A DNA stretch of 64,000 bases. It comes from Escherichia virus TH54. The stretch is taken from the sequence record MT446420.1. The stretch is one strand, 5' to 3'. The translations under genes were made by a program, and so were the position numbers. The notes under the pieces were generated by a model. That model searched no databases, was not told the DNA's origin, and was given only the letters and a program-made list of their open reading frames with translations. Shown here in pieces: positions 4,232 through 55,566 of this stretch (the first letter of the stretch is position 1; each line of letters opens with the position of its first letter).

Positions 4232-4984
4232 ATGGCCAATATCGTAAGATGCGAAATGCCAGACGGAGTTCATCGTTTCAAACCGTTTACAGTCGCTGAT
4301 TACCGTGATTTACTGCTTGTGCGAAACGACATGAACAACAAACCCGTCGAAGAACAAAAACAATTATTAGACGAACTGTTGGAAGATTATTTTGGAGAGT
4401 ATCCGAAAGCATGGAGGCCATACATATTCTTGAAGGTATTCACTTCCTCTATCGGTAAGACAAAAGTCCCGGTAGCGTTCGAATGTCAAAAATGTAAAAA
4501 GACAAAGCAGACTTTGTTTAATATGAGCCAAGGCCCATTGACAAATCCAACAATGGAAACCGCGGGGATAAAAATACAATTTAAGTTCCCCGAAGTGGAA
4601 TATAAAGATAAGTCGGAGCTTGTTCTAAACACCATCCAGACTGTCGAAGACTCAGAACAAAAATACAATTGGGAAGACCTTCCTGAAGAAACGAAGATGC
4701 AGGTTATTGACGCAATTGATATAGAGAGTCTCGAAGAGCTCCTTAAGAAAATGCATTCAGTTTATATTCCATTTACATATGGTTGCTGCGAAAAACACAA
4801 AACCGAATACACAGACCTGCTTGACGTCTTTAAGCTTATCCTTAACCCGGATGAAGTCTTTGTATTTTACCAAATTAACCACTTGCTGGTAAAGAACCAA
4901 TATTCGCTGGATAGCATCATGCACATGATTCCTATCGAACGAGGTATTGCTTTATCGTTAGTTGAAAAGGACTTGAAGAAATGA
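4232..4984 (+). CDS. 51: baseplate hub assembly protein gp51
   Basis: 250 aa; position and length as T4 gp51 (249 aa); ATGA overlap with gene 27 start. Confidence 0.85.
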
Positions 4985-22352: not shown

Positions 22353-22542
22353 AATGTTCTTCCAAGAAGGCCAAGAGTTCTGGAGCGGATTTAAAGATAC
22401 CGCCATCGACCTTGTCTTCATCTTTATAGTCCATTACATCCAGACCAATACGTCCATCTGTTAAAGGCCATACGCTGAAAAAGTATTCGTAACGTTTTTC
22501 AATTTCTTCGATTGTACGAAAAATCTTTTCGATATTATTCAT
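22345..22542 (-). CDS. hypothetical protein
   Basis: 65 aa ORF. Confidence 0.5.
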   Translation of the reverse strand: MNNIEKIFRTIEEIEKRYEYFFSVWPLTDGRIGLDVMDYKDEDKVDGGIFKSAPELLAFLEEHYV

Positions 22543-22731
22543 AGGTTTTCCATGGTAATGGGATTTTAGTTTGCTTTACTGTTAATTCAATACCCGGGTT
22601 CTTGGCTTTTAATTTAAGGCATTCTTCCCAGGCTTTAGATTGACTAGTGAATACACAGAACTGCCCATTGTTAGTTCCAACTAAACCGCCGTCCACGTGA
22701 ACAACGGCCCAGGTTTCATGATGCCAGGCCA

Positions 22732-22732
<1 letters not shown>
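22535..22732 (-). CDS. hypothetical protein
   Basis: Track ORF 22535-22762; internal ATG 22732 abuts the pseT stop. Confidence 0.45.
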
Positions 22733-23950
<1,218 letters not shown>

Positions 23951-24891: not shown

Positions 24892-25241
24892 TTGGTGAGC
24901 TCCTGGAAGTCCTGAGCAAACTTATCAAAGGACTGATTAATCTGTTTTTCAACTAATTTAGGCTTCGCTGCCACAACCTTAGTACGTTTTGCATCCGCAC
25001 GGAGTTTATCATTTTCCTTCTGCAGAAGTTCAACATATTCCTGACGCTCCTGGTCAAGGAGATTAATTTGATTAATCTGGTCTTTTACTGATTGCAGATT
25101 TTTCGCATTATCTTCTGCAACTTTGGTGACTTCCGCCACCGCTGTCTTGAGATTATCTACTTTTGCTTTTAGATAGAAACCACTACCAGCAGTTACTACC
25201 AGGGCTAGCATAAGCCCTGCGGTGAGATTACTTATTTGCAT
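24888..25241 (-). CDS. i-spanin (inner-membrane, Rz-like)
   Basis: N-terminal transmembrane helix followed by coiled-coil-like periplasmic domain; 117 aa; paired with the o-spanin. Confidence 0.7.
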   Translation of the reverse strand: MQISNLTAGLMLALVVTAGSGFYLKAKVDNLKTAVAEVTKVAEDNAKNLQSVKDQINQINLLDQERQEYVELLQKENDKLRADAKRTKVVAAKPKLVEKQINQSFDKFAQDFQELTK

Positions 25242-25735
25242 AACTTGATGATTACCTCAACAATATCATCCTGGGATAAACCATTCAGGAGGATGTGATT
25301 TGTACTGTCCGACGCTGAAATGCGGAACTGATTACCAACTTCATCCGCCATATCATCCTGGGTTAACACTGGGTGTTTAATCCCCAGGCGGTGTTGAAGT
25401 GTCAGGGGTTCAACCACAACATAACAAACACATCCATTGATATGTACATTAGGTTGGGTCTGGTTAATGAACACTTCTGCATCATATTTAACCAAATGGT
25501 TCTTTAAGAAGTCAACCATTTCAGGAACAGATTCATGCAGTGCTTCTTTCCGCTCTTCTGATTTTTTATCACGATATTCTTTTTGTTTTGCCTTCAACTT
25601 TTTATTGGAGGCGAGTTTTTTCCGCAGGTCAGTCATGAGACCAATTTTCTTGGTCCCTTTATAGACATAAATTCCGTCATGGCGGTCACCATATTCATTG
25701 ACAATCATTTCGTTTGAAATCAGTTGCATATCCAT
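25232..25735 (-). CDS. alc: Alc-like host transcription termination/shutoff protein (probable)
   Basis: Track ORF 25232-25837; ATG 25735 with GAGGAAAATATT SD gives 167 aa, equal to T4 Alc, at the T4 alc position; identity by position and size only. Confidence 0.5.
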   Translation of the reverse strand: MDMQLISNEMIVNEYGDRHDGIYVYKGTKKIGLMTDLRKKLASNKKLKAKQKEYRDKKSEERKEALHESVPEMVDFLKNHLVKYDAEVFINQTQPNVHINGCVCYVVVEPLTLQHRLGIKHPVLTQDDMADEVGNQFRISASDSTNHILLNGLSQDDIVEVIIKLCK

Positions 25736-25748
25736 AATATTTTCCTCA

Positions 25749-25982
25749 TTAGTAGCGGTTGTAACCTCTAGGACCAAAAGAGTTGGCACCCAGGCGCTCA
25801 TCTTTCTTTTTGGCTTTTGCTCTAAACCCAGAATCACTTGTTTGAGCTTTCAATTCTTTTAACAATTTGGCCTTCAGGTCAGTAATGAAACCAATCCGGC
25901 GGTCTCCCTTGTAGACATAGATTCCATCATTTCTGTCACCATATGCCTGTGTAACTCTGTCATTTGTAATTAAGTTTAACAT
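25749..25982 (-). CDS. truncated paralogue of the alc N-terminal region
   Basis: 77 aa; AYGDRNDGIYVYKGDRRIGFITDLKAKL parallels EYGDRHDGIYVYKGTKKIGLMTDLRKKL in the adjacent alc-like protein. Confidence 0.5.
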   Translation of the reverse strand: MLNLITNDRVTQAYGDRNDGIYVYKGDRRIGFITDLKAKLLKELKAQTSDSGFRAKAKKKDERLGANSFGPRGYNRY

Positions 25983-26053
25983 GTTTTGGTCCTCATCAGT
26001 AGTTGATGGAACCATTATGTATAGAAAGGAGGGGCTTGTACACCCCTTTTTTA

Positions 26054-27190
26054 TTATTCAGGAAGGATTACTTCCGCCTGGTAGTCCAACGGAATGTAAA
26101 GTTTATGATTTTTAAGGAAAACTTTATTGATTTGAGCAATCGTTTGTTCAGTTTCCTGTGGGCGTTGATAGGTGTTCATTAATACGGAGAACAATCCCGG
26201 GTATGGTTTACACAACTCTTGACCTTTAATCGCAAACTCGCGACGGTCTTTTCCTGCTAACTGTTTTTGTGCATCAAGCAACAGTCCAAGAGTGTTGGAC
26301 AGATAATCCAGATGTACAATGGTAAAGGCATTAACTTTTTCACGGGCGTAATCATCACCAGTAAACATGGCAATAACATCATCAGCCCCGCCAGCAACAA
26401 CAACTTCAAACAGACGCTCATTATTATTAATGGAGTCTTTGGTATGATGTAGAGCACAATACCATTCTGTTTTCAGCTTGAACTTCTGACCACTCGCCAG
26501 CTCATAGACGAAGCCTTCAATCTCTTTCATACCACGAACATTCTCAATGCTCGCCGGGTCATATGCTTCAACCAGGAAAGGACGGAGCGCAGCATCTTTG
26601 AACAATTCAGGATAAGGAATATATTCACCAGTTTCATTATGACGAACGTTCAGCAAAATCAGGTCACGTTCCTGATAAGGAAGAACAATGCGATTGGTTG
26701 GTGCAACATATTCCATATTGCAAGTATATCCAGCTTCAGTGATTTCAGTCACACGCGCCCTGAACGCTTCACGATGAGGTTGTTTAAACACCTGCAGAGC
26801 TTCTGCAGCTTGTGAGCTTTTGATTGACCCTTTGGATTTAAAGGCGATATTGGTCTGGTCCATATAAGTGGAAACCAAACTACCATCAGCTTTTGCAGTA
26901 ACCAGGACAACTTCATCAAGGTTAAGGTCCATGGTCATTGGGTTCTCACCCAGATTAAAAAATTTTTCCATAGGACGAGCAGCAATGCGAACTGGACCAT
27001 TGTCATCCATTTCAAACATAATGCCACGACACTCTAAAGCATCATCAAGGAGCCAATCGCTATAGGAAGCATAGTTATAGCTAAAGATGCGGAACTTAGT
27101 TTCAAATGGAGAAACAAAATCCGTATAGAAAAACTTACCTTTATCAGATTCGGCGCAAAGCTTCATTAAGTTATCATATAATTCAATCAT
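26054..27190 (-). CDS. rnlA: RNA ligase 1
   Basis: 378 aa; matches T4 Rnl1 blocks (IFSYNYASYSDWLL, ALECRGIMFEMD, KADGSLVSTY with lysine nucleotidyltransferase motif). Confidence 0.92.
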   Translation of the reverse strand: MIELYDNLMKLCAESDKGKFFYTDFVSPFETKFRIFSYNYASYSDWLLDDALECRGIMFEMDDNGPVRIAARPMEKFFNLGENPMTMDLNLDEVVLVTAKADGSLVSTYMDQTNIAFKSKGSIKSSQAAEALQVFKQPHREAFRARVTEITEAGYTCNMEYVAPTNRIVLPYQERDLILLNVRHNETGEYIPYPELFKDAALRPFLVEAYDPASIENVRGMKEIEGFVYELASGQKFKLKTEWYCALHHTKDSINNNERLFEVVVAGGADDVIAMFTGDDYAREKVNAFTIVHLDYLSNTLGLLLDAQKQLAGKDRREFAIKGQELCKPYPGLFSVLMNTYQRPQETEQTIAQINKVFLKNHKLYIPLDYQAEVILPE

Positions 27191-52366: not shown

Positions 52367-52463
52367 AGTCTTTATCTATCTTATTACCAATAAACATACC
52401 AACAATCACACCCGCGATTGCCGCGAAAATACAAAGCAATGCAAACTCAACTCCAAAACTCAT
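52365..52463 (-). CDS. small hydrophobic peptide (32 aa)
   Basis: Hand-translated MSFGVEFALLCIFAAIAGVIVGMFIGNKIDKD; GGAGG SD; ATGA overlap with the gp52 stop. Confidence 0.4.
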   Translation of the reverse strand: MSFGVEFALLCIFAAIAGVIVGMFIGNKIDKD

Positions 52464-53839
52464 AGAGCCTCCAAATCATTAAGGTATTCAGTTTTAACAT
52501 CAGTTGTCTTCCAGTACTCATGCTCGGCTTTCTTAGCCTTTGCTTCGTCTGCAAGCTTCTTGGCTTCATCAGAGGTCATATGGTAGATGTTCATCGCCAC
52601 TAACTTCTCTGCATAATCGCCATATATTTCACTCGCCTGGAGCTCCTCAATCAACTTCTTACGAGGTTTCCCCTGGATAACAACCTTACCATCAATCACT
52701 TCTTTAATAAAGAAGACTTTTGCCCGGGCTAGTTTAAACGCGGCTTCAGTTTCTTTAATCTTACTGTCAATTCGCACTTGAACATAAGTCTTACGGACAT
52801 CAACGAAATCGCGAATCAGGTCAAGCGTGTTGGTGTATTCAGCCAGTTTGCCTTTATGATTAAGCACCGTTAAGTTCTGGGAGAGCTTCTCAATCAGACC
52901 AAAGTCTTTCATGATTTTCTCATGATTTTCTTCTTCAGTGCCATCCAACTTGTATTCCTTACGGAATTTAATCTTAAACCCAAAACCATGCTCGCCACAG
53001 TTATCTTTCCAGGTGATAAAACCTTTCTCTTCCAGCGGGTCCAGGATTTTACTTGTATACTTTTCCAGGTTCCATTGGACTGGAATTTCAGTAATTTCCA
53101 TTTGAGTTCTGGAAGTCATTTTGTACGTGCCATGAAGCTCATACTTACCAGGCTCTTCCAGCTCAACAACTTTACCACGGAATTCTGGATATTTTACTTT
53201 CGGAGCAACCGGCTCACGACCTTCCACGATAGCTTTAACAGCTTCCTTGACGTCCTGGAACGAATGAGGAAGAATATCAGTAGCAAAGCCAACAGCAATC
53301 CCAGAAGTGGCGTTAAGTAATACAGTAGGAATAACAGGAAGATAAAAAGCAGGAGGCTTATGTTCTTCATCAGGATGGACCGGAGCATATTCTGTATCCT
53401 TAAACAAGTTGTAAAAGTTCTTTGAAACCCTTGCGAATACATAACGAGCTGATGATGCTTCTGGCACCATTCTGGAACCAAAGTTACCTTGCCCATCAAA
53501 CATAGGATATTCATTTTTATATGTTGCGACCAAACCAGAAGTTGCTTCTTCCGCTGATGCTTCACCATGGTGATAACCATAATCAGCTACGCCACCTGCG
53601 ATGGATGCAACCTTATGGAATTTATTCTTATCACCACGTGCCAGGTCTAATGCTCTCGCCATAACAAATCTGTGAACCGGTTTAAAACCATCAATCATGT
53701 TTGGGATGGCACGACCTTCCACAGTGTAGATAGCATATGACAATGCTTCCACATCAATAATGTCTTTTAGACTGCGTGGGTTAAGGGACCCCATGGAATC
53801 ACTGAACTGTTTGGACATCATACTTAAAACGTCAGACAT
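52460..53839 (-). CDS. 52: DNA topoisomerase II medium subunit gp52
   Basis: 459 aa (T4 gp52 442 aa); GyrA-like breakage-reunion domain. Confidence 0.92.
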   Translation of the reverse strand: MSDVLSMMSKQFSDSMGSLNPRSLKDIIDVEALSYAIYTVEGRAIPNMIDGFKPVHRFVMARALDLARGDKNKFHKVASIAGGVADYGYHHGEASAEEATSGLVATYKNEYPMFDGQGNFGSRMVPEASSARYVFARVSKNFYNLFKDTEYAPVHPDEEHKPPAFYLPVIPTVLLNATSGIAVGFATDILPHSFQDVKEAVKAIVEGREPVAPKVKYPEFRGKVVELEEPGKYELHGTYKMTSRTQMEITEIPVQWNLEKYTSKILDPLEEKGFITWKDNCGEHGFGFKIKFRKEYKLDGTEEENHEKIMKDFGLIEKLSQNLTVLNHKGKLAEYTNTLDLIRDFVDVRKTYVQVRIDSKIKETEAAFKLARAKVFFIKEVIDGKVVIQGKPRKKLIEELQASEIYGDYAEKLVAMNIYHMTSDEAKKLADEAKAKKAEHEYWKTTDVKTEYLNDLEAL

Positions 53840-53847
53840 ATATCACC

Positions 53848-53988
53848 TTACCAGATTAACGAATGTACTGCCATTATAGCATCAGAAATAAAAAGCACAA
53901 CCTGCACTAATGCAAACACAATTCCATAATACAGCGCCACCAATAAGGCAGCAAGGGCTAACGAGTAGCCCAAGATTTTCTTAATCAT
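53848..53988 (-). CDS. small membrane protein (46 aa)
   Basis: Hand-translated MIKKILGYSLALAALLVALYYGIVFALVQVVLFISDAIMAVHSLIW; predicted transmembrane. Confidence 0.4.
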   Translation of the reverse strand: MIKKILGYSLALAALLVALYYGIVFALVQVVLFISDAIMAVHSLIW

Positions 53989-54148
53989 TGCTCACCGCGG
54001 AAACCATAAATTTAACAAAGGCATCAACTACAAACCATCCACACAAGAAATAAACAAACCACATAGGCGGGATGAAGACACCTGCGACAAAAAGAGTTAC
54101 TAAAACAATGACCGCCACTAGATAAATGAATGAAAAGACTGATGTCAT
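53981..54148 (-). CDS. small membrane protein (ac position)
   Basis: Track ORF 53981-54169 begins at TTG; ATG 54148 with GAGGAAAATAT SD gives 55 aa hydrophobic protein; T4 ac occupies this position. Confidence 0.45.
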   Translation of the reverse strand: MTSVFSFIYLVAVIVLVTLFVAGVFIPPMWFVYFLCGWFVVDAFVKFMVSAVSND

Positions 54149-54155
54149 ATTTTCC

Positions 54156-54236
54156 TCAAGGGCGTCCAAAGACGCCAGTTAATTTAAGATTATGACGATG
54201 CCATTGCATCACATGTTCGTTATGGAAATTACTCAT
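54156..54236 (-). CDS. stp: Stp peptide (activator of host PrrC anticodon nuclease)
   Basis: Hand-translated 26-aa [26 protein letters not shown], near-identical to T4 Stp as remembered; located between ndd and ac as in T4; below track cutoff. Confidence 0.8.
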
Positions 54237-54237
54237 A

Positions 54238-54687
54238 TTAATAGCTCTGCAGAATGAATTTAAAGTTATCAGCAAGCATGCGATTCATTTCTGAAAGGGT
54301 CTGGCAATCAGAACTATGTGAGCGAGTGAACGCCATCGCAATTTGACCTTTACCATAACCAGTTGTCAAAGGTTTCATTTTAGAAACTGGAACAAACAGG
54401 ACTTCATAGATAACCCCATTGTTCGCCATTGTGCGAGACAGTTGAGAACGTTGTTTGCGGATGTGACTTAATACAGTGTCAAACCCTTGTTGCGAGCGTT
54501 GGTTACCAACATAAAAACGTGCGGCAACAATACGTGATTCGCCTTCACCTTTGACCATGAAATAAAAACCTGGTTGGGTGATAGCTTCTTTAGTCGGGCG
54601 ACCTGCAACATAATTACCATTATGGATGTAAGCAACAGTAGTAGCGCCAGCATTCAGTACGTCACGACGGGTCATATAAGTAGACAT
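54238..54687 (-). CDS. ndd: Ndd nucleoid disruption protein
   Basis: 149 aa (T4 Ndd 151 aa); [28 protein letters not shown] and [11 protein letters not shown] blocks match T4 Ndd from memory. Confidence 0.65.
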
Positions 54688-54725
54688 ATTAATTTCCTCA
54701 GTAAGTTAAAGTTTTGTGCTCCAGT

Positions 54726-54760
54726 GGGGTCATTATACTCTGACCCCAAGAGTTTGTATA
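54726..54760 (-). promoter_or_regulatory. early promoter for ndd with the -10 inside a 7-bp inverted repeat
   Basis: Minus strand TATACA-N17-TATAAT; GGGGTCA...TGACCCC flanks the -10. Confidence 0.5.
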
Positions 54761-55102
54761 CTATTTTTGAAGTTTTTCTAAAATAAATTCGGGGGTGTAA
54801 CAAGTAGCGTTATACACCTTATTCAGGTTTATCAAAGCATATCCATAGGTATTACGTAATTCTTTAATAACATTTTCATAGCTTACATAGTAAGCATTGC
54901 GATAGTCGGGGTCCATGCACATACGGAATTTAATAAATCTGTAAAAACCTGTATCAGGGTCCTGAACAAAAACAAAATCTGCGCTCATTACAGTTTTTAA
55001 ATGTAACCCTGGAATCTGCCCTTGATTACATAAAGCTGCATCTTGGAGACTAAGGTTCTTAAAGAACATAACATTGGCATTACCAAAAAATAATTTAGAC
55101 AT
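54761..55102 (-). CDS. hypothetical protein (ndd.1 position)
   Basis: 113 aa ORF. Confidence 0.5.
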   Translation of the reverse strand: MSKLFFGNANVMFFKNLSLQDAALCNQGQIPGLHLKTVMSADFVFVQDPDTGFYRFIKFRMCMDPDYRNAYYVSYENVIKELRNTYGYALINLNKVYNATCYTPEFILEKLQK

Positions 55103-55117
55103 AATGATTTCCTCAAT

Positions 55118-55363
55118 TTATTCAGGGTCTACTGCGCCATCCCACAAGTCAACTTCTTCTGATGATTCCATCAGTTCATCAACTGTGAAGCACTCAGTAT
55201 TATTTTCAATTGCAAAGCGCTTCTGATAAAAAGGATAATCCAAACAGTTTTCAGTGCGTACGGGGCGCTCACTGTTATCCATTAAAGGCGAAATGCGAAT
55301 CAGTTGTTGACCATCACCCAGGACAAATTTTTCACCAACTGCAATGTCTTTAAAAAGTTTCAT
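55118..55363 (-). CDS. hypothetical acidic protein
   Basis: 81 aa ORF. Confidence 0.5.
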   Translation of the reverse strand: MKLFKDIAVGEKFVLGDGQQLIRISPLMDNSERPVRTENCLDYPFYQKRFAIENNTECFTVDELMESSEEVDLWDGAVDPE

Positions 55364-55566
55364 TGCTTAGCTCCATTCCAAATTACATCAACAACAGACT
55401 TCAAACCATTATCCTGGATTTGTGTGAACACTTCAGCAGCAATCCAGAACTGGAAACCAATCATTGCAATGGCACCAATGAAAATCAGGATAATCATCGC
55501 CACAATAAACTTGAACATAAAGTCAAAGCGACGATTGGATTTCTGAAATTGTGAATTGTAATTCAT
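55360..55566 (-). CDS. hypothetical membrane protein
   Basis: Track ORF 55360-55614; ATG 55566 with GAGGATAAT SD; one predicted transmembrane helix. Confidence 0.5.
   Translation of the reverse strand: MNYNSQFQKSNRRFDFMFKFIVAMIILIFIGAIAMIGFQFWIAAEVFTQIQDNGLKSVVDVIWNGAKQ

What the first reader, a model, noticed from the sequence alone, without database searches (positions are those of the whole stretch)
54156..54236. stp peptide gene missed by the ORF track; stp-pseT-rnlA tRNA-repair module is present
A 26-codon ORF between ndd and the ac-position gene encodes [26 protein letters not shown], which matches T4 Stp as I remember it. In T4, Stp inhibits the host Prr restriction system and thereby unleashes the PrrC anticodon nuclease; polynucleotide kinase (pseT, 22732-23634) and RNA ligase 1 (rnlA, 26054-27190) repair the cleaved tRNA-Lys. 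All three components are in this window.
Basis: partly seen in the sequence, partly recalled or inferred. Interest (0 to 1): 0.5.

Follow-up and report, generated by a model that had tools for sequence, protein, structure and literature searches.

The report
Stp peptide gene, already known
The 26-codon reading frame is a genuine copy of the phage T4 stp gene, which encodes a tiny peptide that blocks one class of bacterial DNA-cutting enzymes and can trip a tRNA-cutting alarm; the two phage tRNA-repair enzymes are also in the window, and all of this is ordinary for a T4-like phage and already named in reference genomes.

Summary
Observation confirmed. Window 54156..54236 (minus strand) encodes [26 protein letters not shown]. 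It matches T4 Stp at 20 of 26 residues and passes Pfam PF08133 (55 bits, cut-off 25). It lies directly after ndd, as in T4.

The identical peptide occurs in 39 phage records. RefSeq entries for JS98 and VR25 already name it 'activator of host PrrC lysyl-tRNA endonuclease'. Most gene callers miss it: 21 of 34 annotated records have no feature there. Synonymous-only variation within each allele shows the peptide is under purifying selection.

pseT (22732..23637) and rnlA (26054..27190) are full-length orthologues of T4 Pnk and Rnl1.

Three qualifications:
- This 'WH' allele differs from T4 at residues 12, 13 and 15. These lie in the N-terminal 18-residue region where T4 loss-of-function mutations map, so equal activity is unproven.
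- prrC is in only 6 of 5,426 complete E. coli genomes, while the linked type IC hsdR is in 1,241. Anti-restriction is the more likely everyday role.
- The three genes are dispersed over about 31 kb and are not an operon.

Novelty: already known. Interest: low.

In passing, Stp-core peptides also occur, mostly unnamed, in Kagunavirus and Webervirus siphoviruses.

The parts
54156..54236 (-). stp: 26 codons plus a TGA stop, encoding [26 protein letters not shown] (the 'WH' allele of Stp)
   Evidence: Translation. Pfam PF08133 at 55.3 bits and PHROG 6763. 20/26 identical to T4 Stp. Identical peptide named Stp in RefSeq VR25 and JS98. Window against JS98: 6 synonymous and 0 nonsynonymous differences.
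54161..54176 (-). RNA hairpin inside the last codons of stp (GGCGUC-UUUG-GACGCC), followed by the stp stop codon and the ribosome-binding site and ATG of the next gene (TGAGGAAAATATG)
   Evidence: Picked up by the terminator-like scan. The fold of this stretch is -14.1 kcal/mol with z = -2.6. T4 has the same stem with a UUCG loop. The hairpin is absent from the siphovirus copies. Its function was not tested.
54238..54687 (-). ndd (nucleoid disruption protein, 149 aa), immediately upstream of stp; its stop codon lies 1 nt before the stp ATG
   Evidence: Pfam PF06591 E = 5e-69. 61% amino-acid identity to T4 Ndd.
54732..54760 (-). sigma-70-like promoter match (TATACA-17-TATAAT) upstream of ndd; a candidate early promoter for the ndd-stp transcript
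   Evidence: Consensus scan only. The number of matches in the region was not above the shuffled expectation, so this is weak evidence.
53981..54148 (-). 55-aa hydrophobic protein in the position that T4 ac occupies; not homologous to T4 Ac
   Evidence: No BLASTP alignment to T4 Ac. PHROG 9347, function unknown. A strong GAGG ribosome-binding site overlaps the stp stop codon.
53848..53988 (-). gene 52.1 homologue (46 aa, membrane protein)
   Evidence: Pfam DUF7396 E = 1.9e-19. VR25 annotation.
52460..53839 (-). gene 52, topoisomerase II medium subunit (synteny anchor)
   Evidence: Pfam PF00521 E = 4e-77. VR25 and T4 annotation.
22732..23637 (-). pseT: polynucleotide 5'-kinase / 3'-phosphatase (301 aa from the first ATG; the second ATG, at 23634, corresponds to the T4 start)
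   Evidence: Aligns with T4 Pnk (1ltq) over residues 1-301, E = 1.3e-162. P-loop GCPGSGKST and the phosphatase motif DLDGT are present. Pfam HAD_PNKP plus AAA_33. PHROG 505.
26054..27190 (-). rnlA (gene 63): RNA ligase 1 (378 aa)
   Evidence: Aligns with T4 Rnl1 (2c5u) over residues 2-375, E = 1.1e-120. The KxDG adenylylation motif (KADG) is present. Pfam RNA_lig_T4_1 plus T4_Rnl1_C. PHROG 562.

Best explanation
This is the stp gene of a T4-like phage of the Gaprivervirus/Dhakavirus group; the window's nearest relatives are VR7 and VR25, at 97% nucleotide identity over window 53800-54750.

What is shown:
- The gene encodes a 26-residue peptide that belongs to the Stp family.
- It sits directly behind ndd.
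- It evolves under purifying selection on the amino-acid sequence.

What is inferred from T4 genetics and biochemistry:
- The gene is probably transcribed early together with ndd. It has no good ribosome-binding site of its own and its ATG lies one base after the ndd stop codon, so translation is probably coupled to ndd.
- The peptide binds host type IC restriction-modification complexes (the EcoprrI / EcoR124I family) and inhibits their restriction activity.
- In the rare hosts where the anticodon nuclease PrrC is docked on that complex, the same binding unmasks PrrC, which cuts tRNA-Lys 5' of the wobble base.
- The phage's polynucleotide kinase/phosphatase (pseT) and RNA ligase 1 (rnlA), both intact in this window, then repair the tRNA, so infection proceeds.

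The three genes are dispersed early genes and not an operon.
For: Identity and family:
- It passes Pfam PF08133 at 55.3 bits against a cut-off of 25 and PHROG 6763 at E = 2e-19.
- Synteny with T4, VR25 and JS98 holds.
- RefSeq names the identical peptide 'activator of host PrrC lysyl-tRNA endonuclease' in VR25 and JS98.

Translation and selection:
- Window against JS98 shows 6 synonymous and 0 nonsynonymous differences.
- T4 against the siphovirus RP180 copy shows 9.5 synonymous and 2.5 nonsynonymous differences.
- Across 25 copies, codons 1-11 carry only synonymous variation.
- The siphovirus copies keep the peptide but lose both the RNA hairpin and the ndd context.

Repair enzymes:
- Both align end to end with the solved T4 proteins and retain their catalytic motifs.

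Mechanism, from the literature:
- PMC3014915 sections 30-35 and PMC12707154.

Target availability:
- A type IC hsdR close to that of the prr locus is in 1,241 of 5,426 complete E. coli genomes.
Against: - No experiment exists for this allele.
- It differs from T4 at residues 12, 13 and 15. These lie inside the N-terminal 18 residues said to be almost invariant among T4 relatives, and two of the three lie within residues 4-14, where most T4 loss-of-function mutations map (PMC3014915 section 31).
- It scores 20 bits lower than T4 Stp against the Pfam profile.
- There is no clear Shine-Dalgarno sequence upstream.
- prrC is present in only 6 of 5,426 complete E. coli genomes, so the PrrC branch of the mechanism would rarely operate.
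- How Stp inhibits EcoprrI is itself still unknown (PMC12707154).
Confidence: 0.82

Rival explanations
1. It is a true Stp homologue, but the 'WH' allele (W12, H13, H15, L19, T20, P26) is a specificity variant. It would inhibit a different set of type I enzymes than T4 Stp does, or inhibit restriction without triggering PrrC.
For: - Two discrete alleles exist. Each is invariant at the protein level within its own clade despite many synonymous changes (window against JS98: Sd 6, Nd 0). Between the alleles, nonsynonymous changes dominate (window against T4: Nd 9.3, Sd 5.7).
- A crude McDonald-Kreitman-style table gives fixed N7/S1 against polymorphic N9/S16, Fisher p = 0.017.
- Three of the six differences fall in the N-terminal 18 residues that carry both Stp activities (PMC3014915 section 31).
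Against: - The changes at residues 12 and 13 are conservative (aromatic F to W, Y to H).
- W12/H13 also occur in the distant Webervirus peptides, and H15 occurs alongside F12/Y13 in L013 and L027. These positions therefore look tolerant.
- In T4, most residues needed for PrrC activation are also needed for EcoprrI inhibition (PMC3014915), so uncoupling the two is not easy.
- The gene has only 26 codons, the test is crude, and the sample is small and phylogenetically structured.
- With prrC this rare, and Pnk and Rnl1 present, there is little pressure to escape PrrC.
Confidence: 0.13
2. The stretch is conserved as an RNA or translational element rather than as a peptide. It would act through the hairpin plus a coupling ramp that delivers ribosomes from ndd to the variable downstream membrane-protein gene.
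For: - The 3' end of the frame forms a stable hairpin.
- Hairpin, stop codon, ribosome-binding site and ATG (TGAGGAAAATATG) are conserved in all T4-like copies, although the downstream gene belongs to at least four unrelated types.
- stp is 81% identical to T4 at the nucleotide level, against about 69% for the alignable 285 nt of ndd.
Against: - Variation within alleles is almost purely synonymous.
- Kagunavirus copies keep 24 of 24 residues with 9-10 synonymous changes, no hairpin, a different upstream context and their own GGAG ribosome-binding site.
- T4 genetics shows the peptide itself is necessary and sufficient (PMC3014915 section 31).
- An RNA role for the hairpin can coexist with coding.
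Confidence: 0.03
3. It is a chance short ORF with no function.
For: Short ORFs are abundant: 41 frames of at least 20 aa overlap 53000..55500.
Against: - Profile E-values are 4e-15 and 2e-19.
- The identical peptide occurs in 39 phage records.
- The position is conserved across related phages.
- The selection signature indicates a coding sequence.
Confidence: 0.01

Closest known systems
Phage T4 Stp (NP_049878, 26 aa; Pfam PF08133 Nuclease_act)
   Same: Same length and the same position after ndd. Residues 1-11, 14, 16-18 and 21-25 are identical. The same 3' hairpin stem is present, and so is the same TGAGGAAAATATG junction to the next gene.
   Different: Six substitutions: F12W, Y13H, N15H, T19L, K20T, Q26P. 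The ndd stop codon is separated from the stp ATG by 1 nt here, whereas the two overlap in T4. The hairpin loop is UUUG here and UUCG in T4. The downstream gene is not ac.
Stp of JS98 (YP_001595386) and VR25 (YP_009210023), RefSeq 'activator of host PrrC lysyl-tRNA endonuclease'
   Same: The peptide is identical at 26 of 26 residues. VR25 has the same local gene order and 97% nucleotide identity over the 951-nt stretch compared, window 53800-54750.
   Different: JS98 has a 167-nt spacer between ndd and stp and a different downstream gene. The window differs from VR25 by one synonymous base in stp.
Kagunavirus (Guernseyvirinae) Stp copies, e.g. Raoultella phage RP180
   Same: The same family, at 70 bits against PF08133. 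The N-terminal 11 residues are identical to the window's.
   Different: These carry the T4-type allele ending in GK (25 aa). They are in a siphovirus of about 44 kb, placed after the lysis cassette, with their own GGAG ribosome-binding site. They have no hairpin and are unannotated in RP180.
Webervirus (Drexlerviridae) 35-aa peptides, PHROG 28068
   Same: They share the core SNFHNEHVM-x-WH, including the window's W12 and H13. They just pass PF08133, at 26.8 bits.
   Different: They have a 9-residue N-terminal extension and an unrelated C-terminal half. They are annotated only as hypothetical proteins.
Other anti-restriction proteins that trip 'guard' defences (Ocr with PARIS; Ronin with HsdMS)
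   Same: The logic is the same: a phage inhibitor of type I restriction is sensed, and an abortive-infection effector is released (bioRxiv 10.1101/2023.04.06.535777).
   Different: The proteins and effectors are unrelated. This is an analogy only, and nothing in the window bears on it.

Membership tests
Stp / Pfam PF08133 'Anticodon nuclease activator' | Scores above the curated family threshold | tested here: met
   55.3 bits against a cut-off of 25, E = 4.4e-15, covering profile positions 1-25 of 26. PHROG 6763 E = 2e-19.
Stp / Pfam PF08133 'Anticodon nuclease activator' | Very short free-standing peptide (25-29 aa) that begins [11 protein letters not shown] | tested here: met
   26 aa, with residues 1-11 identical to T4 Stp.
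Stp / Pfam PF08133 'Anticodon nuclease activator' | Position in T4-like genomes: directly downstream of ndd, and upstream of the ac slot, 52.1 and gene 52 | tested here: met
   Window ORFs compared with T4, VR25, fFiEco06 and JS98.
Stp / Pfam PF08133 'Anticodon nuclease activator' | N-terminal 18 residues conserved. These carry both activities; T4 loss-of-function mutations cluster at residues 4-14. | tested here: inconclusive
   15 of 18 residues are identical; the changes are F12W, Y13H and N15H. The list of individual essential residues (Penner et al. 1995) is not in the paper library. W12/H13 and H15 also occur in other natural homologues, which suggests tolerance.
Stp / Pfam PF08133 'Anticodon nuclease activator' | The sequence evolves as a translated peptide | tested here: met
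   Window against JS98: Sd 6, Nd 0. T4 against RP180: Sd 9.5, Nd 2.5. Only synonymous variation in codons 1-11 across 25 copies.
Stp / Pfam PF08133 'Anticodon nuclease activator' | Inhibits type IC restriction (EcoprrI, EcoR124I) and activates latent PrrC | not testable with these tools
   This needs plating and tRNA-cleavage assays. The peptide is below the 30-aa minimum of the structure tool, and complexes cannot be modelled here.
T4 polynucleotide kinase/phosphatase (PseT) | Two-domain enzyme: an N-terminal P-loop kinase plus a C-terminal HAD phosphatase with a DxDxT motif | tested here: met
   End-to-end alignment with 1ltq, E = 1.3e-162. GCPGSGKST and DLDGT are present. Pfam AAA_33 plus HAD_PNKP.
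T4 RNA ligase 1 (Rnl1, gene 63) | Nucleotidyltransferase domain with the KxDG lysine motif, plus the Rnl1-specific C-terminal domain | tested here: met
   Alignment with 2c5u residues 2-375, E = 1.1e-120. KADG aligns with the T4 KEDG motif. Pfam RNA_lig_T4_1 plus T4_Rnl1_C.
Stp-PrrC-Pnk-Rnl1 conflict as a working system | The host carries prrC embedded in a type IC hsd locus | tested here: inconclusive
   The host of this phage is unknown. Megablast finds prrC in 6 of 5,426 complete E. coli genomes, and the linked type IC hsdR in 1,241 of 5,426. Diverged prrC homologues would be missed at this sensitivity.

The most novel reading that the evidence does not exclude
The 'WH' allele of Stp (fixed in Gaprivervirus/Dhakavirus phages) is an adaptively diverged specificity variant. 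Its substitutions at residues 12, 13, 15, 19 and 20 would retarget the peptide to other type I restriction complexes, or would uncouple restriction inhibition from PrrC triggering. Together with the unnamed Stp-core peptides in Kagunavirus and Webervirus siphoviruses, it would then define a broader family of mini anti-restriction peptides with tunable specificity.
Probability: 0.13. Interest if true: 0.45.

Novelty: already known. Interest (0 to 1): 0.12.

Why it matters
For annotating this window, the gene should be called stp. Standard ORF thresholds miss it, as they do in most deposited relatives. There is no new biology in that: the Stp / PrrC / Pnk / Rnl1 conflict is a textbook case, and the identical peptide is already named in RefSeq.

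Three side results give modest added value:
- The natural allele here varies inside the region thought to be almost invariant. That makes it a ready-made probe for the still unknown way Stp inhibits type IC enzymes.
- In complete E. coli genomes the type IC target is common (about 23%) and PrrC is very rare (about 0.1%). This favours anti-restriction as the everyday role of Stp.
- Stp-core peptides exist, largely unnamed, in siphoviruses, which makes an anti-restriction role easier to understand if, as is usual for such phages, their DNA is not modified (an assumption that was not checked here).

Tried and rejected
I used tblastn against the phage collection and degenerate DNA patterns instead.
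- The primary mutagenesis paper (Penner et al. 1995, PMID 7791212) is not held. Residue-level requirements therefore come only from the 2010 review.
- The first literature search failed on a two-letter term.
- A 2026 Druantia preprint that matched 'stp' by word start contains no Stp.
- There are no tRNA genes and no Rfam families in the window, so no phage tRNA-Lys or known RNA element is involved.
- A scan of 185,579 bacterial and archaeal genomes for the NFHNEHVM core gave one hit, in an actinobacterial MAG. It is not an Stp-like ORF, and about 2 hits are expected by chance by my own arithmetic. I found no prophage or bacterial copies.
- Two further viral-contig hits, L023 and L025, were chance matches inside other reading frames.
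- The 39-aa TTG-start version of the ORF was rejected. Its extra 13 codons overlap the ndd coding sequence in another frame and have no counterpart in homologues.
- Plus-strand ORFs over the locus (54130..54195 and 54192..54257, 21 aa each) have nothing to support them.
- The idea that the downstream gene is ac was rejected.
- The promoter scan found no more matches than shuffled sequence gives, so the promoter assignment is weak.
It was validated only afterwards, by 97% identity to plasmid genes annotated 'anticodon nuclease' within an hsdM-hsdS-prrC-hsdR locus.

Full report
**What is in the sequence**

On the minus strand, window 54236..54156 reads ATG, 25 further codons and TGA, and translates to [26 protein letters not shown]. 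The mechanical ORF list gives a longer 39-aa frame from a TTG at 54275. Those extra codons lie inside the ndd coding sequence in another frame, and every homologue starts at the ATG. The ndd stop codon (54240..54238) is one base upstream of the stp ATG. No clear Shine-Dalgarno sequence precedes it. Translational coupling to ndd is my inference from this arrangement.

**Is it Stp?**

I took T4 Stp from the T4 RefSeq record rather than from memory. It is [26 protein letters not shown].

- The window peptide matches it at 20 of 26 positions. Residues 1-11 are identical, and the changes are F12W, Y13H, N15H, T19L, K20T and Q26P.
- It passes the curated threshold of Pfam PF08133, 'Anticodon nuclease activator family' (55.3 bits, cut-off 25, E = 4.4e-15). 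It also matches PHROG 6763, 'activator of host PrrC lysyl-tRNA endonuclease' (E = 2e-19).
- The gene order gp52 / 52.1 / small membrane protein / stp / ndd is that of T4.
- The window is a Gaprivervirus-type T4-like phage. The stretch 53800-54750 is 97.3% identical to VR7 and VR25.
- RefSeq annotates the identical 26-aa peptide as 'activator of host PrrC lysyl-tRNA endonuclease' in VR25 and in JS98.

The gene is real and already known.

**Is it routinely missed?**

Yes. The exact peptide occurs in 39 phage records, and 42 records match at E <= 1e-7. Of the 34 that carry any annotation:

- 21 have no feature at that place;
- 6 call it a hypothetical protein;
- 2 name it (RefSeq VR25 and JS98);
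- in the other 5, only a neighbouring or unrelated gene is listed under the match.

**Is the peptide translated and selected?**

- The window and JS98 copies differ at 6 synonymous and 0 nonsynonymous sites.
- T4 and the copy in the siphovirus RP180 differ at 9.5 synonymous and 2.5 nonsynonymous sites. The nonsynonymous changes fall at the C-terminal residue.
- Across 25 copies, codons 1-11 show only synonymous polymorphism.
- The siphovirus copies keep the peptide while losing the ndd context and the RNA hairpin, and they have their own GGAG ribosome-binding site.

This rules out both a chance ORF and a purely RNA-level explanation.

**The two repair enzymes**

- The 22732..23637 product aligns end to end with T4 polynucleotide kinase (1ltq, E = 1.3e-162). 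The P-loop GCPGSGKST and the phosphatase motif DLDGT are present.
- The 26054..27190 product aligns with T4 RNA ligase 1 (2c5u, residues 2-375, E = 1.1e-120). KADG sits at the adenylylation motif, and the Rnl1-specific C-terminal domain is present.

All three components are present and look intact. They are dispersed: stp lies 27-31 kb from the other two, as in T4. 'Module' is therefore a functional label, not a genomic one.

**Mechanism (from the literature, not tested here)**

- Stp is necessary and sufficient to activate the latent tRNA-Lys anticodon nuclease PrrC.
- It also relieves restriction by the type IC enzymes EcoprrI and EcoR124I, but not by the type IA enzymes.
- Pnk and Rnl1 heal and seal the cut tRNA.
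- Loss-of-function mutations cluster at residues 4-14. The N-terminal 18 residues were reported as almost invariant in eight T4 relatives, and deleting the last 8 codons has only a moderate effect (PMC3014915 sections 30-35).
- A 2025 review states that how Stp inhibits EcoprrI is still unknown (PMC12707154).

**Qualification 1: the allele**

The copies I collected fall into two discrete protein alleles. One is the T4 type (..QFYRNNLKTKGVFGRQ). The other is the 'WH' type found here (..[16 protein letters not shown]).

- Three of the six differences lie inside the critical N-terminal 18 residues. The WH allele scores 20 bits lower than T4 Stp against the Pfam profile.
- Each allele is frozen within its own clade. 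Between the alleles, nonsynonymous changes dominate (window against T4: Nd 9.3, Sd 5.7).
- A crude McDonald-Kreitman-style count gives fixed N7/S1 against polymorphic N9/S16, p = 0.017. With only 24 codons compared and related sequences, I treat this as a hint only.
- Against a functional shift, F to W and Y to H are conservative changes. W12/H13 recur in the distant Webervirus peptides, and H15 occurs with F12/Y13 in two siphovirus copies.

I put about 13% on a real change of specificity.

**Qualification 2: the host side**

It was validated afterwards, by 97% identity to plasmid genes annotated 'anticodon nuclease'. These lie in an hsdM-hsdS-prrC-hsdR locus on a plasmid that also carries phage-type genes (terminase, phd/doc).

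- Megablast finds that prrC in 6 of 5,426 complete E. coli genomes.
- The adjoining type IC hsdR is found at >= 80% coverage in 1,241 of 5,426.

In most encounters, then, Stp would meet a type IC enzyme with no PrrC attached. Anti-restriction is the more plausible everyday role, and the PrrC branch is a rare liability covered by Pnk and Rnl1. Diverged prrC homologues would escape this search.

**Local anatomy**

- The last codons of stp form a hairpin, GGCGUC-UUUG-GACGCC. T4 has the same stem with a UUCG loop.
- The stop codon is followed by GGAAAATATG, which supplies the ribosome-binding site and start of the next gene.
- This junction is conserved in all T4-like copies, but the gene that follows belongs to at least four unrelated types of small hydrophobic protein.
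- The window's 55-aa version has no similarity to T4 Ac.
- A sigma-70-like match lies upstream of ndd (54760..54732). The scan found no more matches than shuffled sequence gives.
- There are no tRNA genes and no Rfam families in the window.

**Seen in passing: Stp beyond T4-like phages**

- Kagunavirus siphoviruses of about 44 kb, such as Raoultella phage RP180 (where it is unannotated), carry a 25-aa T4-type Stp after the lysis cassette. In one metagenomic contig it is fused in frame to the downstream PHROG 2180 protein.
- Webervirus (Drexlerviridae) phages carry a 35-aa peptide with the Stp core behind a 9-residue extension. It just passes the Pfam threshold, at 26.8 bits, and is filed as PHROG 28068, 'unknown function'.
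- tblastn lists 171 Klebsiella and 133 Salmonella phage records among the matches.
- A scan of representative bacterial and archaeal genomes found no Stp-like ORF.
- I did not find this distribution described in the papers I searched. That is not proof that it is unpublished.

**Verdict**

The finding is already known and ordinary for this kind of phage, so interest is low (0.12). The main residual uncertainty is whether the WH allele behaves exactly like T4 Stp.

Noticed in passing
L019 12484-12561 (Raoultella phage RP180, MK737937 43056-43130); also L014, L016, L017, L027: Kagunavirus siphoviruses of about 44 kb carry a 25-aa T4-type Stp ([25 protein letters not shown]). It sits just after the lysis cassette and has its own GGAG ribosome-binding site. 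It is unannotated in RP180. Compared with T4 it shows 9.5 synonymous and 2.5 nonsynonymous differences, so it is under strong purifying selection.
   Followed up: partly
L013 226-450: In one metagenomic Kagunavirus-like contig, Stp is fused in frame to the small downstream protein (PHROG 2180, function unknown), giving a 74-aa product. In the relatives the two genes only overlap, by ATGA.
   Followed up: partly
L024 ~4720-4827, L026, L028; L031 1474-1581 (Klebsiella phage PhiKpNIH-10, QHB49645): Webervirus (Drexlerviridae) phages encode a 35-aa peptide, [35 protein letters not shown]. It has the Stp core, including the window's W12/H13, behind a 9-residue extension. It just passes Pfam PF08133 (26.8 bits) and is PHROG 28068, 'unknown function'. 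Many Klebsiella and Salmonella phage records have such matches.
   Followed up: partly
window 53981-54160; compare L004, L005, L008, L018: The stp stop codon plus GGAAAATATG (ribosome-binding site and start of the next gene) is conserved in all T4-like copies. The gene that follows is one of at least four unrelated types of small hydrophobic protein. The 'ac slot' therefore looks like a swap point, and the window's 55-aa version is not homologous to T4 Ac.
   Followed up: partly
window 54161-54176 (minus strand): A six-base-pair GC-rich hairpin lies inside the last codons of stp. Its loop is UUUG here and UUCG (the very stable tetraloop) in T4, JS98 and most other copies. Its role, for example in mRNA stability or processing, was not tested.
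   Followed up: partly
L033 (E. coli plasmid CP057689, 24453-37640); E. coli genome collection: prrC is found in only 6 of 5,426 complete E. coli genomes, whereas the linked type IC hsdR is in 1,241. One prr locus sits on a plasmid that also carries phage-type genes (terminase, late-promoter activator, phd/doc). The first ~268 nt of the prr-linked hsdR are not shared with most other type IC hsdR genes.
   Followed up: partly
window 25749-26015 and 25232-25735 (minus strand): Directly upstream of alc (167 aa from its internal ATG) lies a 77-88-aa ORF. Its first ~60 residues are 45% identical to the N-terminus of Alc (E = 1e-16), so it is a partial paralogue of the host-transcription inhibitor. 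RefSeq VR25 annotates both.
   Followed up: partly
window ~22535-22762, compared with L032 23116-23841 (VR25): VR25 has a MobE-like homing endonuclease gene on the opposite strand that overlaps the 3' end of pseT. The window shows no such ORF there and has a 75-aa minus-strand ORF instead. The tRNA-repair gene thus neighbours a mobile-endonuclease insertion site that differs between close relatives.
   Followed up: no
L029 1334-1500 (JS98): In JS98 the identical stp is separated from ndd by a 167-nt spacer, whereas in the window and T4 the two genes abut or overlap. Translational coupling to ndd therefore cannot be universal.
   Followed up: no
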